From: Parcubacteria group bacterium
GTDB lineage: Bacteria > Patescibacteriota > Minisyncoccia > Moranbacterales > UBA2206
Direction of reading: 5' to 3'
DNA length: 64,000 nucleotides
NCBI GenBank assembly: GCA_041664225.1
Contig: JBAYLE010000003.1
Coordinates: 15,608 to 79,607, forward strand
Positions 6,024 through 14,631 of the stretch are shown here, in pieces. The translations under genes and the position numbers were made by a program. A model generated the notes under the pieces. It had not been told where the DNA came from and made no database searches. It was given only the letters and a program-made list of their open reading frames with translations. The first letter of the stretch is position 1; every line of letters begins with the position of its first letter.

Positions 6024-8126
6024 ATGCGATATACTATACTTATGATTACTCCTGAAACTTTATTGGCCAAAATCCCACGCGTCACCCCAAAATATCTGGG
6101 ACTTTTGGAAAAAGTCGGGATTATTTCCGTCCGTGATTTTTTGTTGTACTTCCCCTTCCGCTATGACGATTTTTCTCAGATCGTCCAAATTTCCGAAGAA
6201 TATATCGGCCAGACGGTTACTATTAAAGGAATTGTTAAAAAAACAAAATTGGCCAGAATTTTCCGCCGCAAAATGACCATTACCGAAGTTGTTATCCAAG
6301 ATGAATTTAACACTCCCCTCAAAGCCATCTGGTTCAACCAGCATTTCATTTTGGATACTTTGAAAGAAGGTGTTTTAGTAAGGCTCTCTGGCAAATTGGA
6401 ACTCAAGGGAAAATTTTTTACTATGACCAATCCGGCCTGGGAAAAATCTTCGCGCGAAGCAACTAATACCGGCATTCTAGTCCCGGTTTACAATGAAACC
6501 AGAGGACTCACTTCCAAGTGGATTCGCTGGCAATTGAAACCCCTTTTGCCGCTCGCCAAACAAGTTGAAGATCCGATCCCCTTTGAGATTCGCAAGAGAT
6601 TAAATCTTTATGATATCCAAACTGCGCTCCAACAAATTCATTTTCCGCAAAATCCGGAAGAGCTTTTGCGCGCCCAAAAAAGATTCGCTTTCGAGGAAAT
6701 GTTTCTGGTCCAGCTCAAGACTTTGCAGGTCAAGCATGCTTGGGAGAAAAATAATTCGCTTGAGATACTCTTTGACGAAAAGCTGATCAAAAAATTTGTC
6801 AGTGTCCTACCGTTCAAACTTACTGACGCACAAAGAAAATCAACTTTTGAAATTTTGAAAGATTTGGAGAAGCCCAAACCGATGAACCGCTTACTAAACG
6901 GCGATGTCGGATCTGGAAAAACTGTCGTAGCCGCGATCGCTTCTTTACAAGCGATATCCGCCGATTTTCAAGTCGCCATCATGGCGCCCACCGAAGTTCT
7001 GGCCAAACAACATTTTGAAAGTTTTTGTAAATTATTTGAAAATTATCAAATCAATATCGCACTGCTAACTAATTCGTATAAATTACTGGATGATAATAGG
7101 GTATCGCGTACTAATTTATTAGACAAGATCGAAACTGGTAAAATTGATTTAGTCATCGGTACCCATGCCTTGATTCAAAGGGACGTCAGATTTAAAAATC
7201 TGGCTTTGGTCATAATTGATGAACAGCATCGCTTCGGAGTTGCCCAACGCGCAGCTTTGCAGCAAGAAACTATGTCGATTAAGGACGGGGTACAAAAAAC
7301 GATCCCGCACCTGCTAACAATGACTGCCACACCTATCCCCCGCACTCTTGCCATTGCGCTTTTCGGCAGTCTGGAGCTGTCCATTCTGGATGAAATGCCA
7401 AAAAATAGAAAGCCTATTATTACCAAGATTATTCCGTCAACAGGACGCAAAGAAATTTATAATTTCATACGCAAAGAGATATCTGACGGCCGGCAAGTTT
7501 TTGTCATCTTCCCCCTGATTGAAGAATCCAAAGCTCTCACTGAAATCAAGGCAGCTACTGTGGAGCACGAAAAACTATCTAAAATATTCCCTGAATTCAA
7601 TATTGGGCTTTTGCATGGACGGCTTAAGCCGACTGAAAAAGAAAAAGTAATGCAGGAATTCAAGGAAAAGGAACTAGATATTTTGGTTTCCACTTCCGTA
7701 GTCGAAGTTGGCATCGACATTCCCAACGCAACCGTAATGATCATCGAAGACGCTGACCGTTTCGGTTTGTCGCAATTGCATCAATTCCGCGGCCGCGTCG
7801 GCCGGGGTGAGCATCAATCATATTGTTTTCTATTCACCGGTTCCGATTCGAGCAAAACCGCCGGCCGCCTAACCGCCCTTACTGAAAGCAATGACGGTTT
7901 CAGAATCGCCGAAAAAGATTTGGCTTTGCGCGGACCGGGACAATTCTTCGGAACCCTACAGTCCGGTATCCCTGACATCGCTATGGAAAATCTGAGCAAT
8001 ATCAAACTGATAAAATACTCCCGCGCCGAAGCGCAAAATCTTTTGAGCCTAGACCCTGAATTAAAAAAACATCCCGCTACGCAAGATGCTCTCCTGAAAT
8101 TTTCAGAAAAAATCCACTTGGAATAA
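6024..8126 (+). CDS. recG: ATP-dependent DNA helicase RecG. Start placed at MRYTIL, downstream of the terminator that overlaps the ORF-track start at 5961.
   Basis: Wedge domain, helicase motif I GDVGSGKT, motif II DEQHRFGV, motif VI QLHQFRGRVGRG. Confidence 0.85.
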   Translation: MRYTILMITPETLLAKIPRVTPKYLGLLEKVGIISVRDFLLYFPFRYDDFSQIVQISEEYIGQTVTIKGIVKKTKLARIFRRKMTITEVVIQDEFNTPLKAIWFNQHFILDTLKEGVLVRLSGKLELKGKFFTMTNPAWEKSSREATNTGILVPVYNETRGLTSKWIRWQLKPLLPLAKQVEDPIPFEIRKRLNLYDIQTALQQIHFPQNPEELLRAQKRFAFEEMFLVQLKTLQVKHAWEKNNSLEILFDEKLIKKFVSVLPFKLTDAQRKSTFEILKDLEKPKPMNRLLNGDVGSGKTVVAAIASLQAISADFQVAIMAPTEVLAKQHFESFCKLFENYQINIALLTNSYKLLDDNRVSRTNLLDKIETGKIDLVIGTHALIQRDVRFKNLALVIIDEQHRFGVAQRAALQQETMSIKDGVQKTIPHLLTMTATPIPRTLAIALFGSLELSILDEMPKNRKPIITKIIPSTGRKEIYNFIRKEISDGRQVFVIFPLIEESKALTEIKAATVEHEKLSKIFPEFNIGLLHGRLKPTEKEKVMQEFKEKELDILVSTSVVEVGIDIPNATVMIIEDADRFGLSQLHQFRGRVGRGEHQSYCFLFTGSDSSKTAGRLTALTESNDGFRIAEKDLALRGPGQFFGTLQSGIPDIAMENLSNIKLIKYSRAEAQNLLSLDPELKKHPATQDALLKFSEKIHLE

Positions 8127-10677: not shown

Positions 10678-10752
10678 GGCGCCATCGTCTAGTGGTTAGG
10701 ACACCAGGTTTTCATCCTGGTAACAGGGGTCCGATTCCCCTTGGCGCTACCA
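10678..10752 (+). tRNA. tRNA-Glu (anticodon TTC), CCA encoded
   Basis: Acceptor ggcgcca/tggcgct, anticodon loop ttTTCat. T-loop is tccgatt, an atypical form also seen in the tRNA-Arg(TCT) of this window. Confidence 0.8.
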
Positions 10753-10953
10753 AAGAAAAAATTCAGGCCTAAGCCTGGATTTTTTGTTTGTTATGGCGCC
10801 GGGGAATCGGACGGGCAGAAGCGAGACCAGTCGTCTCGACGCAGGCGAACGCCGACAAATTCGAGCGAGCGAGCCTGCCTGCCGGTAGGCAGGGATTTGG
10901 CGCTGCCCAGGACAAGGAGTCCGCCGCGAACTACGCGGAATTCCCCTTGGCGC
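10753..10953. other. GC-rich ~190-bp segment bounded by a direct repeat of the tRNA-Glu 3' end; putative relic of a tRNA-targeted integration
   Basis: ttccccttggcgctac at the tRNA 3' end (10735-10750) recurs at 10936-10951. An inverted partial copy ggcgccggggaatcggac lies at 10797-10814. Local GC is far above the surroundings. The ORF-track ORFs here look spurious. Confidence 0.45.
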
Positions 10954-11052
10954 TACAAATTTTATTGAGAGAATCAGCGCAGTTTTTTCAGCTAGAGACT
11001 AAACTGTGCTATAATTAAAAAAGACAAACTCCTAAAAAATTATCAAAAAAAT

Positions 11053-11361
11053 ATGGCAAAACAAAATTGCTGGGAATTTAAAAAATGTGGACGCTACCCT
11101 GGCGGAGAAAACGAAAAAGAGCTGGGTGTTTGCCCGGTAAGCACAGAGCCCAGAACTGATGGAATACATGGCGGCATGAACGCTGGGCGGGTATGCTGGC
11201 TGATTGCTGGGACATTGTGCAAGGGCAATATTCAAGGTACATTCGCGCAGAAACTTGGCAACTGTATGACTGATTGTGAGTTCTACAAAAAAGTAAAAAC
11301 GGATGAGGGCGAAAATTTCGAATTCAGTGGTAATGTACTAAGGAAATTGCAGCCAAAATAA
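11053..11361 (+). CDS. Small stand-alone four-Cys 'two-CW'-type domain protein (putative metal/redox-binding), 102 aa
   Basis: Two CW motifs with partner cysteines: NCWEFKKCG and RVCWLIAGTLC, plus CMTDCEFY. Extended -10 promoter tgcTATAAT upstream; terminator downstream. Confidence 0.55.
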   Translation: MAKQNCWEFKKCGRYPGGENEKELGVCPVSTEPRTDGIHGGMNAGRVCWLIAGTLCKGNIQGTFAQKLGNCMTDCEFYKKVKTDEGENFEFSGNVLRKLQPK

Positions 11362-11383
11362 ACATCCTGATATCAACAACTTA

Positions 11384-11410
11384 AAAAAACTCCCGATCGG
11401 GAGTTTTTTG
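11384..11410 (+). terminator. Rho-independent terminator
   Basis: aaactcccgatcgggagttttttg. Confidence 0.75.
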
Positions 11411-11428: not shown

Positions 11429-12136
11429 TTATTTTTCTGTACAACAACTTATGTTTTCCGCGTGGAAATAAAGTGAATCATTTGAGTCCTGCTTTCCAAC
11501 TGCCCGTAAAAATTTTCCAACCGCATAATCCGGAACATATGGAAAAACTTTGTCATCGCCTAAGCCAACTTTCACTAATCTTCCATTTTCTTCTTGAATT
11601 ACAACCTCATTATTGGTCACACTCATAATTTCCCCCATCACCGCCATTTCTTCAGGCATGACCCGGTTAGTATAGAGTCCATTTATCAACTGTTCTCCCC
11701 CCATAACCGCGAAAAAGGAGCCCAAAAAGACAATTGCTACCAAAAGAGCCGTGGCCGGAATATTAAAAGAATGTCTAATTCCCAAAGAAAAATTAAGCTT
11801 GTGTACGACATAGCTCCCCAGTATTAAAGTGATCAGAAAAAGTGCCAAGTAATCATAAGGAAAGGAAAGCAAAAAAACCTTGAGACCTGGAACGCCCAGC
11901 TTCAGAAAATTAAGGGCACCCGTTTTTTTGAAAACATACAAAATAACTGACACTGCCAGCGCCCCGCCCAATATAGCCAGCATCAAAATGCTTTCCAACC
12001 CTGCTTTTTCAGCCACAAAAAAAAGCGGGCTTCTCATTTTTATGCGCTTTTTTTTGATCTGATTCATCACCCTGTTCCTCATATCCACTCCGCTCTGCGC
12101 GCTCTGGATCAAATTTTTGTCAAAGCCTCCTTCCAT
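11429..12136 (-). CDS. Membrane protein co-transcribed with the ECF sigma factor (possible anti-sigma factor)
   Basis: Start overlaps the sigma-gene stop (ATGA coupling); 3-4 predicted TM helices; no recognisable zinc-finger anti-sigma motif. Confidence 0.4.
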   Translation of the reverse strand: MEGGFDKNLIQSAQSGVDMRNRVMNQIKKKRIKMRSPLFFVAEKAGLESILMLAILGGALAVSVILYVFKKTGALNFLKLGVPGLKVFLLSFPYDYLALFLITLILGSYVVHKLNFSLGIRHSFNIPATALLVAIVFLGSFFAVMGGEQLINGLYTNRVMPEEMAVMGEIMSVTNNEVVIQEENGRLVKVGLGDDKVFPYVPDYAVGKFLRAVGKQDSNDSLYFHAENISCCTEK

Positions 12137-12771
12137 TATTTTTTCCTCTGAGTATTCTGGATTTTTTTTAGTTTTTCCATTTCCTCAGACAATTTCTTTT
12201 TAGCCCTATTAATTAAAGTGCCGACCGTATTCACTGGTTTGCCCAAAATTTCACCTACTTCTTCATAAGACTTGTCTGAGAAATATCGGAGTAACAGAAC
12301 TTGTTTGTATTTTATTGGCAATCCATTGATGGCCTGGTCAACATCATCGATCGCTTCTTTTCTGATCCAGGCGTCATCTGCCCCGTCCTCTGTGCTGCTG
12401 CTTTCCAGCTTATCTTTGGTTGAACTGATATCTTCCCACGAAATAAAGCGCTTCAGTGATTTACGCTTGATATAATTCACGGCTTCATTGTGGGCAATAC
12501 GATAGATCCACGAAGAAAATTTACGGCTGGAATCGTAGCTGTGCAAATTTTTATATGCCTTGATAAAGACGTCCTGCAACAAATCCTCAGCCTCTTCTCG
12601 GTTTCCAACGAGCCTATATAGATAGGCAAAAAGTTTTCCTTGATATCTCTCAATTATTTCAGCATATCTTTCAGGCTCCGTTTCGCGAACTAAATCAATA
12701 AGCTCATTATCATTCAAGATTTGGCCTTGTTTGGTGGCTTTTTTAATGTCTAGACTTTGTTTTCCAGTCAT
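12136..12771 (-). CDS. RNA polymerase sigma factor, ECF (sigma-70 family group 4)
   Basis: Region 2 LLQDVFIKAYKNL...WIYRIAHNEAVNYIKR and region 4 HTH SYEEVGEILGKPVNTVGTLINRAKKKL. Confidence 0.8.
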   Translation of the reverse strand: MTGKQSLDIKKATKQGQILNDNELIDLVRETEPERYAEIIERYQGKLFAYLYRLVGNREEAEDLLQDVFIKAYKNLHSYDSSRKFSSWIYRIAHNEAVNYIKRKSLKRFISWEDISSTKDKLESSSTEDGADDAWIRKEAIDDVDQAINGLPIKYKQVLLLRYFSDKSYEEVGEILGKPVNTVGTLINRAKKKLSEEMEKLKKIQNTQRKK

Positions 12772-14043: not shown

Positions 14044-14631
14044 ATGAATAACGCGATAAAAATTAAACTGCTGCTCTTCGGCGTCATTGCCGCTTTCGGA
14101 TCACTGTTTTTTGAATTGGCCGTTTCTATTTTTTTCCCGGGGGAAACTGCGTTTTTATTTGATCAGATCACCCTCCTATTGATCTTTTTCGTAATCATTG
14201 AAGAATTAATCAAATTTTTTGTGATTTGGAAATCCGTCTCATTTTTTCAAAACGCGCGTGATTTTTTTCTCGGCGCCTGCCTGATCGGATTTGGTTTTTC
14301 TCTTACCGAGATTATTTTTGCCAGCCTCAATGTCGCTGGCGGACAGCATGCAACCTGGCTTCCGTTTTTAGGAATTTTTGTTGTCCATACTTCTACCTGT
14401 GTCATTTTGGGATACGGAATATATCTGAAAAAAAGAAGTACTATAATTATCCCCCTGGTTTCCATCCTGATTGTTTTTCTTTTGCATCTAATTTACAATA
14501 TTCTGGTCATCTACGGTACGGGTGCCTCCATCATTCTATCTTACCTTTGCATACTTTTTATTTTATCCATTGCTGTTGGAAAAAAACTGCAAAAACAGCA
14601 GGGCCTAAAAAACAATTTGCCAAAAATATAA
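14044..14631 (+). CDS. PrsW-family intramembrane metalloprotease-like membrane protein
   Basis: Multi-TM; EELIKF (EExxK), FxxTE and downstream His motifs in TM segments as in PF13367. Confidence 0.5.
   Translation: MNNAIKIKLLLFGVIAAFGSLFFELAVSIFFPGETAFLFDQITLLLIFFVIIEELIKFFVIWKSVSFFQNARDFFLGACLIGFGFSLTEIIFASLNVAGGQHATWLPFLGIFVVHTSTCVILGYGIYLKKRSTIIIPLVSILIVFLLHLIYNILVIYGTGASIILSYLCILFILSIAVGKKLQKQQGLKNNLPKI

What the first reader, a model, noticed from the sequence alone, without database searches (positions are those of the whole stretch)
11053..11361. Stand-alone 'two-CW'-type four-cysteine small protein beside the ECF sigma / anti-sigma pair
The 102-aa product carries two Cys-Trp motifs, each with a partner cysteine (NCWEFKKCG and RVCWLIAGTLC), and a further CMTDCEFY. 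From memory, this arrangement matches a ~50-aa four-Cys 'two-CW' domain described mainly at the N-termini of archaeal (methanogen) sensor kinases. A free-standing copy in this bacterium is unusual. It is convergent with an ECF sigma factor and its membrane partner and has its own extended -10 promoter and terminator. It may be a metal or redox sensing module that acts in trans.
Basis: partly seen in the sequence, partly recalled or inferred. Interest (0 to 1): 0.6.

Follow-up and report, generated by a model that had tools for sequence, protein, structure and literature searches.

The report
Stand-alone two-CW cysteine-rich sensor-type protein
This is a real, well-conserved 102-residue gene of the named but uncharacterised "two-CW" family, whose seven invariant cysteines and frequent fusion to signalling enzymes suggest a small cytoplasmic metal-based sensor; the free-standing form is the common form, and its position beside the ECF sigma factor appears coincidental.

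Summary
The ORF at 11053-11361 (+) exists and matches NCBIfam NF045718 "two-CW domain" over the whole model (108.5 bits, cut-off 35, E 1.6e-31). Three parts of its reading need correction.

- The conserved core has seven invariant Cys, not four: C6, C12, C27, C48, C56, C71 and C75. W7 and W49 are also invariant.
- The free-standing ~100-aa form is not unusual. It dominates among about 2,000 sequence clusters spread over many bacterial and archaeal phyla, at 55-65% identity to this protein.
- The ECF sigma/membrane-protein neighbourhood is kept only in near-identical strains. An ECF-like sigma lies nearby in 2 of about 131 other loci.

When the domain is fused, its partners are almost all signal-transduction domains (HK, REC, PAS, GAF, GGDEF, MCP, cyclase, Ser/Thr kinase), at either terminus. 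A few partners are rubrerythrin-like domains. Stand-alone genes lie next to two-component genes more often than genes a few positions away do.

The confident AF2 model (pLDDT 88) has no PDB neighbour. There is no Pfam family and no paper.

Best reading: a soluble, Cys-ligated metal (probably Fe-S) sensor module that acts in trans. The cofactor and the partner are inferred, not shown.

Verdict: new member of a known, uncharacterised family.

The parts
11007..11015 (+). Extended -10 promoter element TGcTATAAT, about 37 nt upstream of the ATG. There is no good -35.
   Evidence: Read directly. Kept as TGCTACAAT at the same distance in the 94% relative L081, although the rest of the upstream DNA does not align. 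Not listed by the -35/-10 consensus scan.
11053..11361 (+). CDS of the 102-aa stand-alone two-CW protein (11.3 kDa, pI 8.5, no TM segment). It is NCBI MFA6383134.1, annotated 'hypothetical protein', from a Parcubacteria group bacterium MAG.
   Evidence: 25 synonymous versus 6 non-synonymous codon differences against L081.
11062..11301 (+). Two-CW domain proper (residues 4-83). Invariant C6 W7 E8 C12 G13 R14 ... C27(P28) ... G45 R46 x C48 W49 ... C56 ... Q61 ... K67 ... C71 x3 C75 F77.
   Evidence: NF045718, 108.5 bits, model positions 1-79 of 80. Invariant columns in 121 sequences and in 362 domain instances.
11383..11409 (.). Bidirectional intrinsic-terminator-like hairpin A7-CTCCC-GATC-GGGAG-T6, shared by the two-CW gene (+) and the convergent membrane-protein/sigma operon (-).
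   Evidence: Sequence. Fold z = -4.9 on the + strand and -2.5 on the - strand. Identical in L081.
11429..12136 (-). Context only. A 235-aa multi-pass membrane protein whose start overlaps the sigma stop codon (ATGA). It is an anti-sigma factor by position only, with no family match.
   Evidence: No Pfam, NCBIfam, PADLOC or PHROG family.
12136..12771 (-). Context only. ECF-type sigma-70 factor. Its best equivalog models are SigW, but it scores below their cut-offs.
   Evidence: TIGR02937, 120.7 bits (cut-off 42.9). Sigma70_r2 and r4_2 domains.

Best explanation
The gene encodes a soluble cytoplasmic single-domain protein of the two-CW family.

Shown:
- It is a full-length member of the family.
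- The family keeps seven cysteines and two tryptophans essentially invariant across bacteria and archaea.
- The same domain is fused, at either terminus, to histidine kinases, receiver domains, PAS/GAF, GGDEF, MCP, cyclase and Ser/Thr-kinase/PP2C modules.
- Stand-alone genes are enriched next to two-component genes.

Inferred:
- The seven Cys hold a metal cofactor. One or two iron-sulfur clusters is the most likely option, and zinc is the alternative.
- The oxidation, loss or occupancy of that cofactor changes the conformation of the C-terminal helical part (residues ~64-99). In fused proteins this part runs into the coiled-coil/DHp linker.
- In the free-standing form, that change would be passed on to a signalling partner by protein-protein contact. 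The protein would then be a diffusible redox/O2/metal sensor.

In this Parcubacteria genome the gene is its own transcription unit. The partner is unknown, and the adjacent ECF sigma pair is probably not it.
For: - Family membership.
- Cys/Trp invariance: (353-362 of 362 instances at each Cys position).
- The C27-P28 pair is kept in 324 of 362 instances. There is only one CxxC-type knuckle, which is unlike classical Zn ribbons (direct reading).
- Fusion partners of 47 multidomain representatives: HATPase_c 12, REC 9, PAS 8, HisKA 7, cNMP 4, Pkinase 3, GAF, GGDEF, MCPsignal, cyclase, PP2C.
- Individual architectures: N-terminal to PAS-GGDEF, HisKA-HATPase, PilZ and cyclase; C-terminal to GGDEF, NIT-MCP, REC and hybrid HK.
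- In L012 and L068 the domain is followed by a ~45-aa helical linker and then the H-box.
- Rubrerythrin-like + two-CW fusions in three Thermodesulfovibrionales/Sulfobium loci. Here two-CW sits where canonical rubrerythrins carry their rubredoxin Fe(Cys)4 domain (the rubrerythrin architecture is from established knowledge).
- Signalling genes make up 15.8% of genes at +-1 versus 6.8% at +-3-4 (Fisher p 0.01). The trend repeats in a second locus set, 10.8% versus 3.5%.
- Operon-like strings NtrC-RR / HAMP-PAS-HK / two-CW / REC-HD in L043, L051 and L059.
- Most hosts belong to anaerobic lineages: Thermodesulfovibrionia, Methanoregula, Methanospirillum, Desulfobacterota, Bathyarchaeota, Omnitrophota, Paceibacteria (their physiology is from general knowledge).
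- The protein is soluble with no TM segment.
- The AF2 model is confident: pLDDT 88, pTM 0.80. The N-terminal 60 residues are mostly loops and the C-terminal part has three helices.
Against: - No cofactor was shown. The structure tool gives no coordinates, so clustering of the Cys could not be measured.
- Seven is an odd number of ligands for two 4-Cys sites.
- No universal neighbour exists, and most stand-alone genes (63 of 81 loci) have no adjacent signalling gene.
- The enrichment statistic treats related loci as independent.
- Some hosts (Rokubacteria, Armatimonadota, MAGs labelled 'Nitrospira') may be aerobes.
- REC + two-CW proteins place the domain where output domains, not input domains, usually sit.
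Confidence: 0.5

Rival explanations
1. It is a small electron-transfer metalloprotein, used like a ferredoxin or rubredoxin, and not a regulator. The signalling fusions would merely borrow a redox-active module.
For: - Seven invariant Cys with a C-P pair.
- Three rubrerythrin-like + two-CW fusions in the position of the rubredoxin domain.
- Very high sequence conservation across domains of life (55-65% identity), as for core redox carriers.
- Monocistronic, with a constitutive-looking extended -10.
- No fixed neighbour.
Against: - Nearly all other fusions are to signalling domains, not to oxidoreductases.
- No Pfam ferredoxin, rubredoxin or HiPIP signal even at E<=1.
- No fold match to any PDB redox protein.
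- There is a neighbourhood bias toward two-component genes.
Confidence: 0.2
2. It is a structural zinc-binding interaction or output domain. It would bind DNA or a protein and serve as effector of receiver domains. The stand-alone form would be a small transcription or adaptor factor with no sensing role.
For: - REC + two-CW proteins (P0143, P0160, P0215, P0075) put it in the output position.
- pI is 8.5, and K3, K10, R14, R46 and K67 are invariant or nearly so.
Against: - The domain sits N-terminal to kinase, cyclase and GGDEF modules and C-terminal to MCPs, which fits an input domain.
- No HTH or other DNA-binding family match.
- There is only one CxxC knuckle.
Confidence: 0.15
3. It is a trans-acting partner of the neighbouring SigW-like ECF sigma / membrane anti-sigma pair. 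This is the reading the first reader implied: for example, a redox co-sensor that controls release of the sigma factor.
For: - Convergent adjacency with a shared terminator in this genome and in near-identical relatives.
- A PrsW-like protease lies two genes further on, so a regulated-proteolysis ECF module is plausible.
- Family members are often near other signalling genes.
Against: - The adjacency is absent in the 78% Paceibacteria relative L001 and in the 65% relative L082.
- An ECF-like sigma lies within the flanks of only 1 of 80 and 1 of 51 other loci.
- The genes are convergent, not co-transcribed.
- No ECF-type promoter motif is seen upstream of the two-CW gene.
Confidence: 0.05

Closest known systems
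NCBIfam NF045718 'two-CW domain-containing protein' (for example WP_440950970.1 of Methanosphaerula subterraneus, P0068)
   Same: Full-length match above the curated cut-off. Same length class (~100 aa). 58% identity to the methanogen protein. All seven Cys and both CW motifs are kept.
   Different: The window protein and its Parcubacteria/Paceibacteria-type relatives have CxxxC (C71-C75) where most members have CxxC. The window protein also lacks the extra C-terminal C-K-x-x-P-x-C pair found in its nearest clade mates P0002, P0003, P0005 and P0006. The family itself has no described function, structure or paper.
CZB (chemoreceptor zinc-binding) domain of TlpD and DgcZ. This is a functional analogue, not a relative.
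   Same: A small cytoplasmic metal-thiolate module that occurs C-terminal to MCPs, next to GGDEF domains and on its own. It reports oxidants or zinc to the attached signalling domain (PMC6715182, PMC8262984). Two-CW shows the same pattern of attachment to MCP, GGDEF and HK modules.
   Different: CZB is a four-helix bundle with a 3His/1Cys zinc site. Two-CW has seven Cys, a loop-rich N-terminal half, no sequence match to any Pfam family and no PDB fold match.
Cys-ligated Fe-S sensor modules (FNR N-terminal cluster, NreB PAS-[4Fe-4S], WhiB-like proteins). These are functional analogues recalled from established knowledge.
   Same: Small cytoplasmic Cys clusters whose Fe-S state reports O2, NO or redox. 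WhiB-like proteins are also ~100-aa stand-alone proteins that act by binding a partner (sigma factor).
   Different: Those use four Cys with different spacing. There is no sequence or fold similarity here. An Fe-S cluster in two-CW is not demonstrated.
Rubredoxin domain of rubrerythrin
   Same: In L004, L033 and L078 the two-CW domain follows a rubrerythrin/ferritin-like domain, the position that the Fe(Cys)4 rubredoxin domain holds in canonical rubrerythrins.
   Different: No rubredoxin signature (two CxxC knuckles) and no Pfam match. Two-CW is about twice as long and has seven Cys.

Membership tests
two-CW domain (NCBIfam NF045718) | Score above the curated cut-off of the family HMM, over the full model | tested here: met
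   108.5 bits against a cut-off of 35, E 1.6e-31, model positions 1-79 of 80
two-CW domain (NCBIfam NF045718) | Two Cys-Trp motifs, each with a partner Cys (C-W-x4-C and C-W-x6-C) | tested here: met
   C6W7...C12 and C48W49...C56. Invariant in 121 sequences and in >=353 of 362 domain instances
two-CW domain (NCBIfam NF045718) | Further conserved Cys (C27-P, C71, C75) and the GR / QGTFA / FY motifs of the 80-position model | tested here: met
   All present. C71-C75 is spaced CxxxC rather than the majority CxxC
two-CW domain (NCBIfam NF045718) | Bound metal cofactor | not testable with these tools
   No coordinates from the AF2 model, no metal-site predictor, no experimental data. No literature
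Classical Fe-S / zinc small proteins (ferredoxin, HiPIP, rubredoxin, Zn-ribbon, WhiB-like, CZB) | Sequence match to the family profile or fold match to a solved member | tested here: not met
ZAS-type anti-sigma factor (zinc-binding anti-sigma, HxxxCxxC) | H-x3-C-x2-C motif in an anti-sigma domain, encoded in an operon with its sigma factor | tested here: not met
   The single His (H39) is not followed by CxxC and is H/N-variable in the family. The gene is convergent with the sigma operon, not part of it
Anti-phage defence or phage protein families | Match to PADLOC or PHROG profiles, or presence on viral contigs | tested here: not met
   No hits. No relatives in IMG/VR. BFVD fold search empty

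The most novel reading that the evidence does not exclude
The two-CW module is a so-far uncharacterised class of cofactor-bearing (Cys7, probably Fe-S) cytoplasmic redox/O2 sensor, with a fold absent from the PDB. Its abundant free-standing ~100-aa form, as in this Parcubacteria genome, is a diffusible sensor that docks onto kinases, receivers or other regulators rather than being wired to them in cis.
Probability: 0.3. Interest if true: 0.65.

Novelty: new member of a known kind. Interest (0 to 1): 0.4.

Why it matters
The individual gene is an ordinary member of a family that NCBI already names, so the locus itself is not a discovery. The family is more interesting:

- It comprises about 2,000 sequence clusters at 50% identity.
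- It keeps 55-65% identity between CPR bacteria, Nitrospirota and methanogens.
- It has seven invariant cysteines.
- It has no Pfam entry, no solved or structurally similar protein, and no paper.
- It has the fusion profile of a signal-input domain.

If the cofactor and signal were identified, this would add a new sensor domain to the prokaryotic signalling repertoire and would annotate thousands of 'hypothetical proteins' in anaerobes. Its retention in a reduced Parcubacteria genome suggests the function matters even in minimal cells.

Tried and rejected
- **Pfam on the protein:** no family at E<=1.
- **PDB sequence profile search:** only a chance mitofusin hit, E 0.34.
- **Literature:** searches for 'two-CW', NF045718 and the motif strings found nothing relevant.
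- **Conserved-neighbour search over 80 genome loci:** no universal neighbour. My first impression of many nearby paralogues was a single-linkage artefact through HK domains and was corrected. There are 85 two-CW hits in 81 loci.
- **ECF sigma link:** rejected.
- **ECF/SigW-type promoter motif (GAAAC-N15-18-CGTA) near the gene:** none. The single window match is elsewhere and at chance level.
- **Defence-system or phage origin:** rejected.
- **Second copy in the window:** none.
- **Metagenome scan for close CPR-clade relatives:** returned only relatives of <=65% identity. Neighbourhood conservation at intermediate distance therefore rests on L001 and L082 only.
- **Rfam for the GC-rich element upstream:** nothing.

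Full report
**1. What is there**

The window has an ATG-to-TAA ORF of 102 codons at 11053-11361 on the + strand. Its product carries these motifs:
- NCWEFKKCGR (C6, W7, C12)
- GVCP (C27)
- GRVCWLIAGTLC (C48, W49, C56)
- NCMTDCEFY (C71, C75)

It has 7 Cys, 2 Trp and 1 His. It is 11.3 kDa with pI 8.5, is hydrophilic and has no transmembrane segment.

The ORF is a real gene. Compared with a 94%-identical relative on another metagenome contig (L081), 25 codons differ synonymously and only 6 non-synonymously, while the DNA upstream of the promoter cannot be aligned.

TGcTATAAT lies at 11007-11015. It is kept as TGCTACAAT at the same distance in L081.

Downstream, A7-CTCCC-GATC-GGGAG-T6 (11383-11409) folds with z = -4.9 and is identical in L081. 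Its A-run/T-run symmetry lets it serve both convergent transcription units.

The exact protein is in NCBI as MFA6383134.1, 'hypothetical protein', from a Parcubacteria group bacterium MAG. Its closest genome-resolved relative (78%) is in a Candidatus Paceibacteria MAG (L001).

**2. Family**

NCBIfam NF045718 'two-CW domain' matches residues 4-83 over model positions 1-79 of 80, with 108.5 bits (cut-off 35) and E 1.6e-31. Pfam has nothing at E<=1, and none of the 120 best homologues has a precomputed Pfam domain.

In an alignment of the query with 120 homologues the invariant columns are C6 W7 E8 C12 G13 R14 G18 C27 G41 G45 R46 C48 W49 C56 Q61 K67 C71 C75. Over 362 domain instances, including multidomain proteins, each of the seven Cys is kept in 353-362. 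The conserved core is thus a Cys7 module of about 80 residues, not a 50-residue four-Cys one.

The query and its nearest clade have CxxxC at C71-C75 where most members have CxxC.

**3. How common is the free-standing form**

A word-indexed search gave 407 hits. 118 of the best 120 are 91-133 aa long and are 54-94% identical to the query.

An exhaustive HMM search of 1.84 billion cluster representatives found 2,026 clusters at E<=1e-3 and 1,127 at E<=1e-10. About two thirds of the best 150 are shorter than 180 aa.

They come from:
- Nitrospirota/Thermodesulfovibrionia
- Methanoregula, Methanospirillum, Methanobacterium
- Bathyarchaeota
- Desulfobacterota
- Spirochaetes
- Fibrobacterota
- Ignavibacteriales
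- Omnitrophota
- Planctomycetales
- Armatimonadota
- Rokubacteria
- Bacteroidota
- Paceibacteria

Several copies per genome are common.

A stand-alone bacterial copy is therefore the norm. There are no relatives on viral contigs and no PADLOC or PHROG match.

**4. Structure**

AlphaFold2 with the 121-sequence alignment gives a confident model (mean pLDDT 88.2, pTM 0.80). Residues 1-60 are loop-rich with short helices. Three helices follow at 64-74, 76-88 and 92-99.

Nothing in the PDB resembles it:
- Foldseek PDB, no hit with E<8
- PDB sequence profile search empty

The afdb50 library was unavailable. The tools return no coordinates, so I could not test whether the seven Cys converge on metal sites.

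**5. Evidence on function**

(a) Fusions. Of 47 multidomain representatives, the partner families are HATPase_c (12), Response_reg (9), PAS (8), HisKA (7), cNMP-binding (4), Pkinase (3), GAF, GGDEF, MCPsignal, adenylate/guanylate cyclase, PP2C and NIT.

The domain occurs N-terminal to PAS, PAS-GGDEF, PilZN-PilZ, HisKA-HATPase, cyclase and PAS-GAF-HK. It occurs C-terminal to GGDEF, NIT-MCP, REC, PAS-HK and a hybrid HK-REC-REC-Hpt. It also occurs as tandem pairs.

In the soluble kinases of L012 and L068, a ~45-residue helical linker follows the domain and leads into the H-box. This is the usual sensor-to-DHp arrangement.

(b) Three Thermodesulfovibrionales/Sulfobium proteins join a rubrerythrin/ferritin-like domain to a C-terminal two-CW domain. 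Canonical rubrerythrins have their rubredoxin Fe(Cys)4 domain in that position (established knowledge).

(c) Neighbourhood. No gene is a universal neighbour. Genes of the HK/REC/PAS supercluster make up 15.8% of genes at +-1 but 6.8% at +-3-4 (Fisher p 0.01, loci not independent). In an independent set of 51 metagenome loci the figures are 10.8% and 3.5%. Examples are NtrC-type RR / HAMP-PAS-HK / two-CW / REC-HD_5 on one strand in L043, L051 and L059, and dCache-HAMP-PAS-GAF-HD followed after 25 nt by two-CW in L041 and L049.

(d) Hosts are mostly anaerobic lineages (physiology from general knowledge).

Together these results show a cytoplasmic signalling module. They make a Cys-ligated metal (Fe-S or Zn) sensor the most economical mechanism. 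The cofactor, the stimulus and the trans-acting mode of the free protein are inferences.

**6. The ECF sigma neighbourhood**

The 211-aa protein at 12136-12771 (-) is an ECF sigma factor (TIGR02937, 120.7 bits). SigW models are its best hits but fall below their equivalog cut-offs.

The 235-aa membrane protein at 11429-12136 (-) starts on the sigma stop codon (ATGA) and has no family match. It is an anti-sigma factor by position only.

The arrangement two-CW / membrane protein / sigma is found only on contigs carrying the identical or a 94% identical protein. The 78% Paceibacteria relative is instead followed by a membrane permease-like ORF, a PAS-GGDEF protein and a REC-radical-SAM protein. 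The 65% relative sits between acetyltransferases.

A BLAST search with the window sigma factor found an ECF-like sigma in the flanks of 1 of 80 genome loci (L062) and 1 of 51 metagenome loci (L139). No ECF-type promoter motif precedes the two-CW gene. I treat the adjacency as fortuitous, with a residual 5% for a lineage-specific link.

**7. Comparison with known systems**

*Membership.* The protein is a full member of NF045718 on every sequence criterion tested. It is not a member of any ferredoxin, rubredoxin, Zn-ribbon, WhiB-like, CZB or ZAS family.

*What it works like.* The nearest analogues are small cytoplasmic metal-thiolate sensor modules that attach to MCPs, GGDEF enzymes and kinases, or work alone. 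The clearest is the CZB domain of TlpD and DgcZ (PMC6715182, PMC8262984). Others, from established knowledge, are Fe-S sensors such as FNR, NreB and WhiB-like proteins. The resemblance is in architecture and logic only.

**8. Verdict**

The locus is a new member of a known, named but functionally uncharacterised family. The interest score is moderate (0.4) and comes from the family rather than from this copy: it is large, strongly conserved, Cys7, has no fold match in the PDB, and has no literature.

Noticed in passing
window 10786-10975 (with tRNA-Glu at 10678-10752): A ~190-nt GC-rich island (~59% GC against a window mean of 41.7%) lies between tRNA-Glu and the two-CW promoter. It starts with GGCGCC, the first 6 nt of tRNA-Glu. 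It ends with an exact 17-nt repeat of the tRNA 3' end (ATTCCCCTTGGCGCTAC; 10734-10750 = 10940-10956). It folds into a closed multi-branch structure (MFE -84.5, z -4.1 on +, -4.4 on -). ARAGORN and Rfam do not call it, and it is absent from the 94% relative L081. It looks like a tRNA-derived att-type duplication or a tRNA-like structured RNA.
   Followed up: partly
window 12136-12771 (-), 11429-12136 (-), 14044-14631 (+): A SigW-like ECF sigma factor is translationally coupled to an unclassified multi-pass membrane protein. A PrsW-protease-like membrane protein (weak Pfam hit) lies two genes away, beyond tsaD. This resembles the SigW/RsiW/PrsW regulated-proteolysis module.
   Followed up: partly
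L023, L027, L029, L045, L079 and about 8 other Nitrospirota loci, around position 8000: In 12-13 Nitrospirota/Thermodesulfovibrionales species the stand-alone two-CW gene sits on the opposite strand between selB (TIGR00475, 383 bits) and selA (TIGR00474, 597 bits), with queC nearby. It thus interrupts what is usually a selAB operon. This could be a selenium link or just lineage synteny.
   Followed up: partly
L004 7506-8318, L033 7308-8303, L078 3952-4746: Single ORFs join a rubrerythrin/ferritin-like domain to a C-terminal two-CW domain. Here two-CW takes the place of the usual rubredoxin domain.
   Followed up: partly
P0002, P0003 (L001 984-1319), P0005, P0006 compared with window 11053-11361: The nearest CPR-type clade mates carry an extra C-terminal Cys pair (C-K-[LI]-x-P-[SN]-C). 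The window protein, P0001 and P0004 lack it (R97, and the protein ends before the second Cys). The whole clade has CxxxC instead of CxxC at C71-C75.
   Followed up: no
P0063 / L031 7998-8510: A two-CW domain is followed by a C-terminal tail, LPICAWCKKIRDDNGYW...HGACPEC. By my recollection this Cys-rich tail also occurs at the end of other signalling proteins. No Pfam family matched it.
   Followed up: no
L039 8001-8309 and 8476-8778 (Methanospirillum lacunae Ki8-1 chromosome); L003 7047-8297: L039 has tandem stand-alone two-CW genes in a cultivated methanogen, a possible experimental host. In L003 (Rokubacteria) a phosphonate-binding periplasmic-type domain and a two-CW domain share one ORF. 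This may be a true fusion or an assembly or ORF-calling artefact.
   Followed up: no
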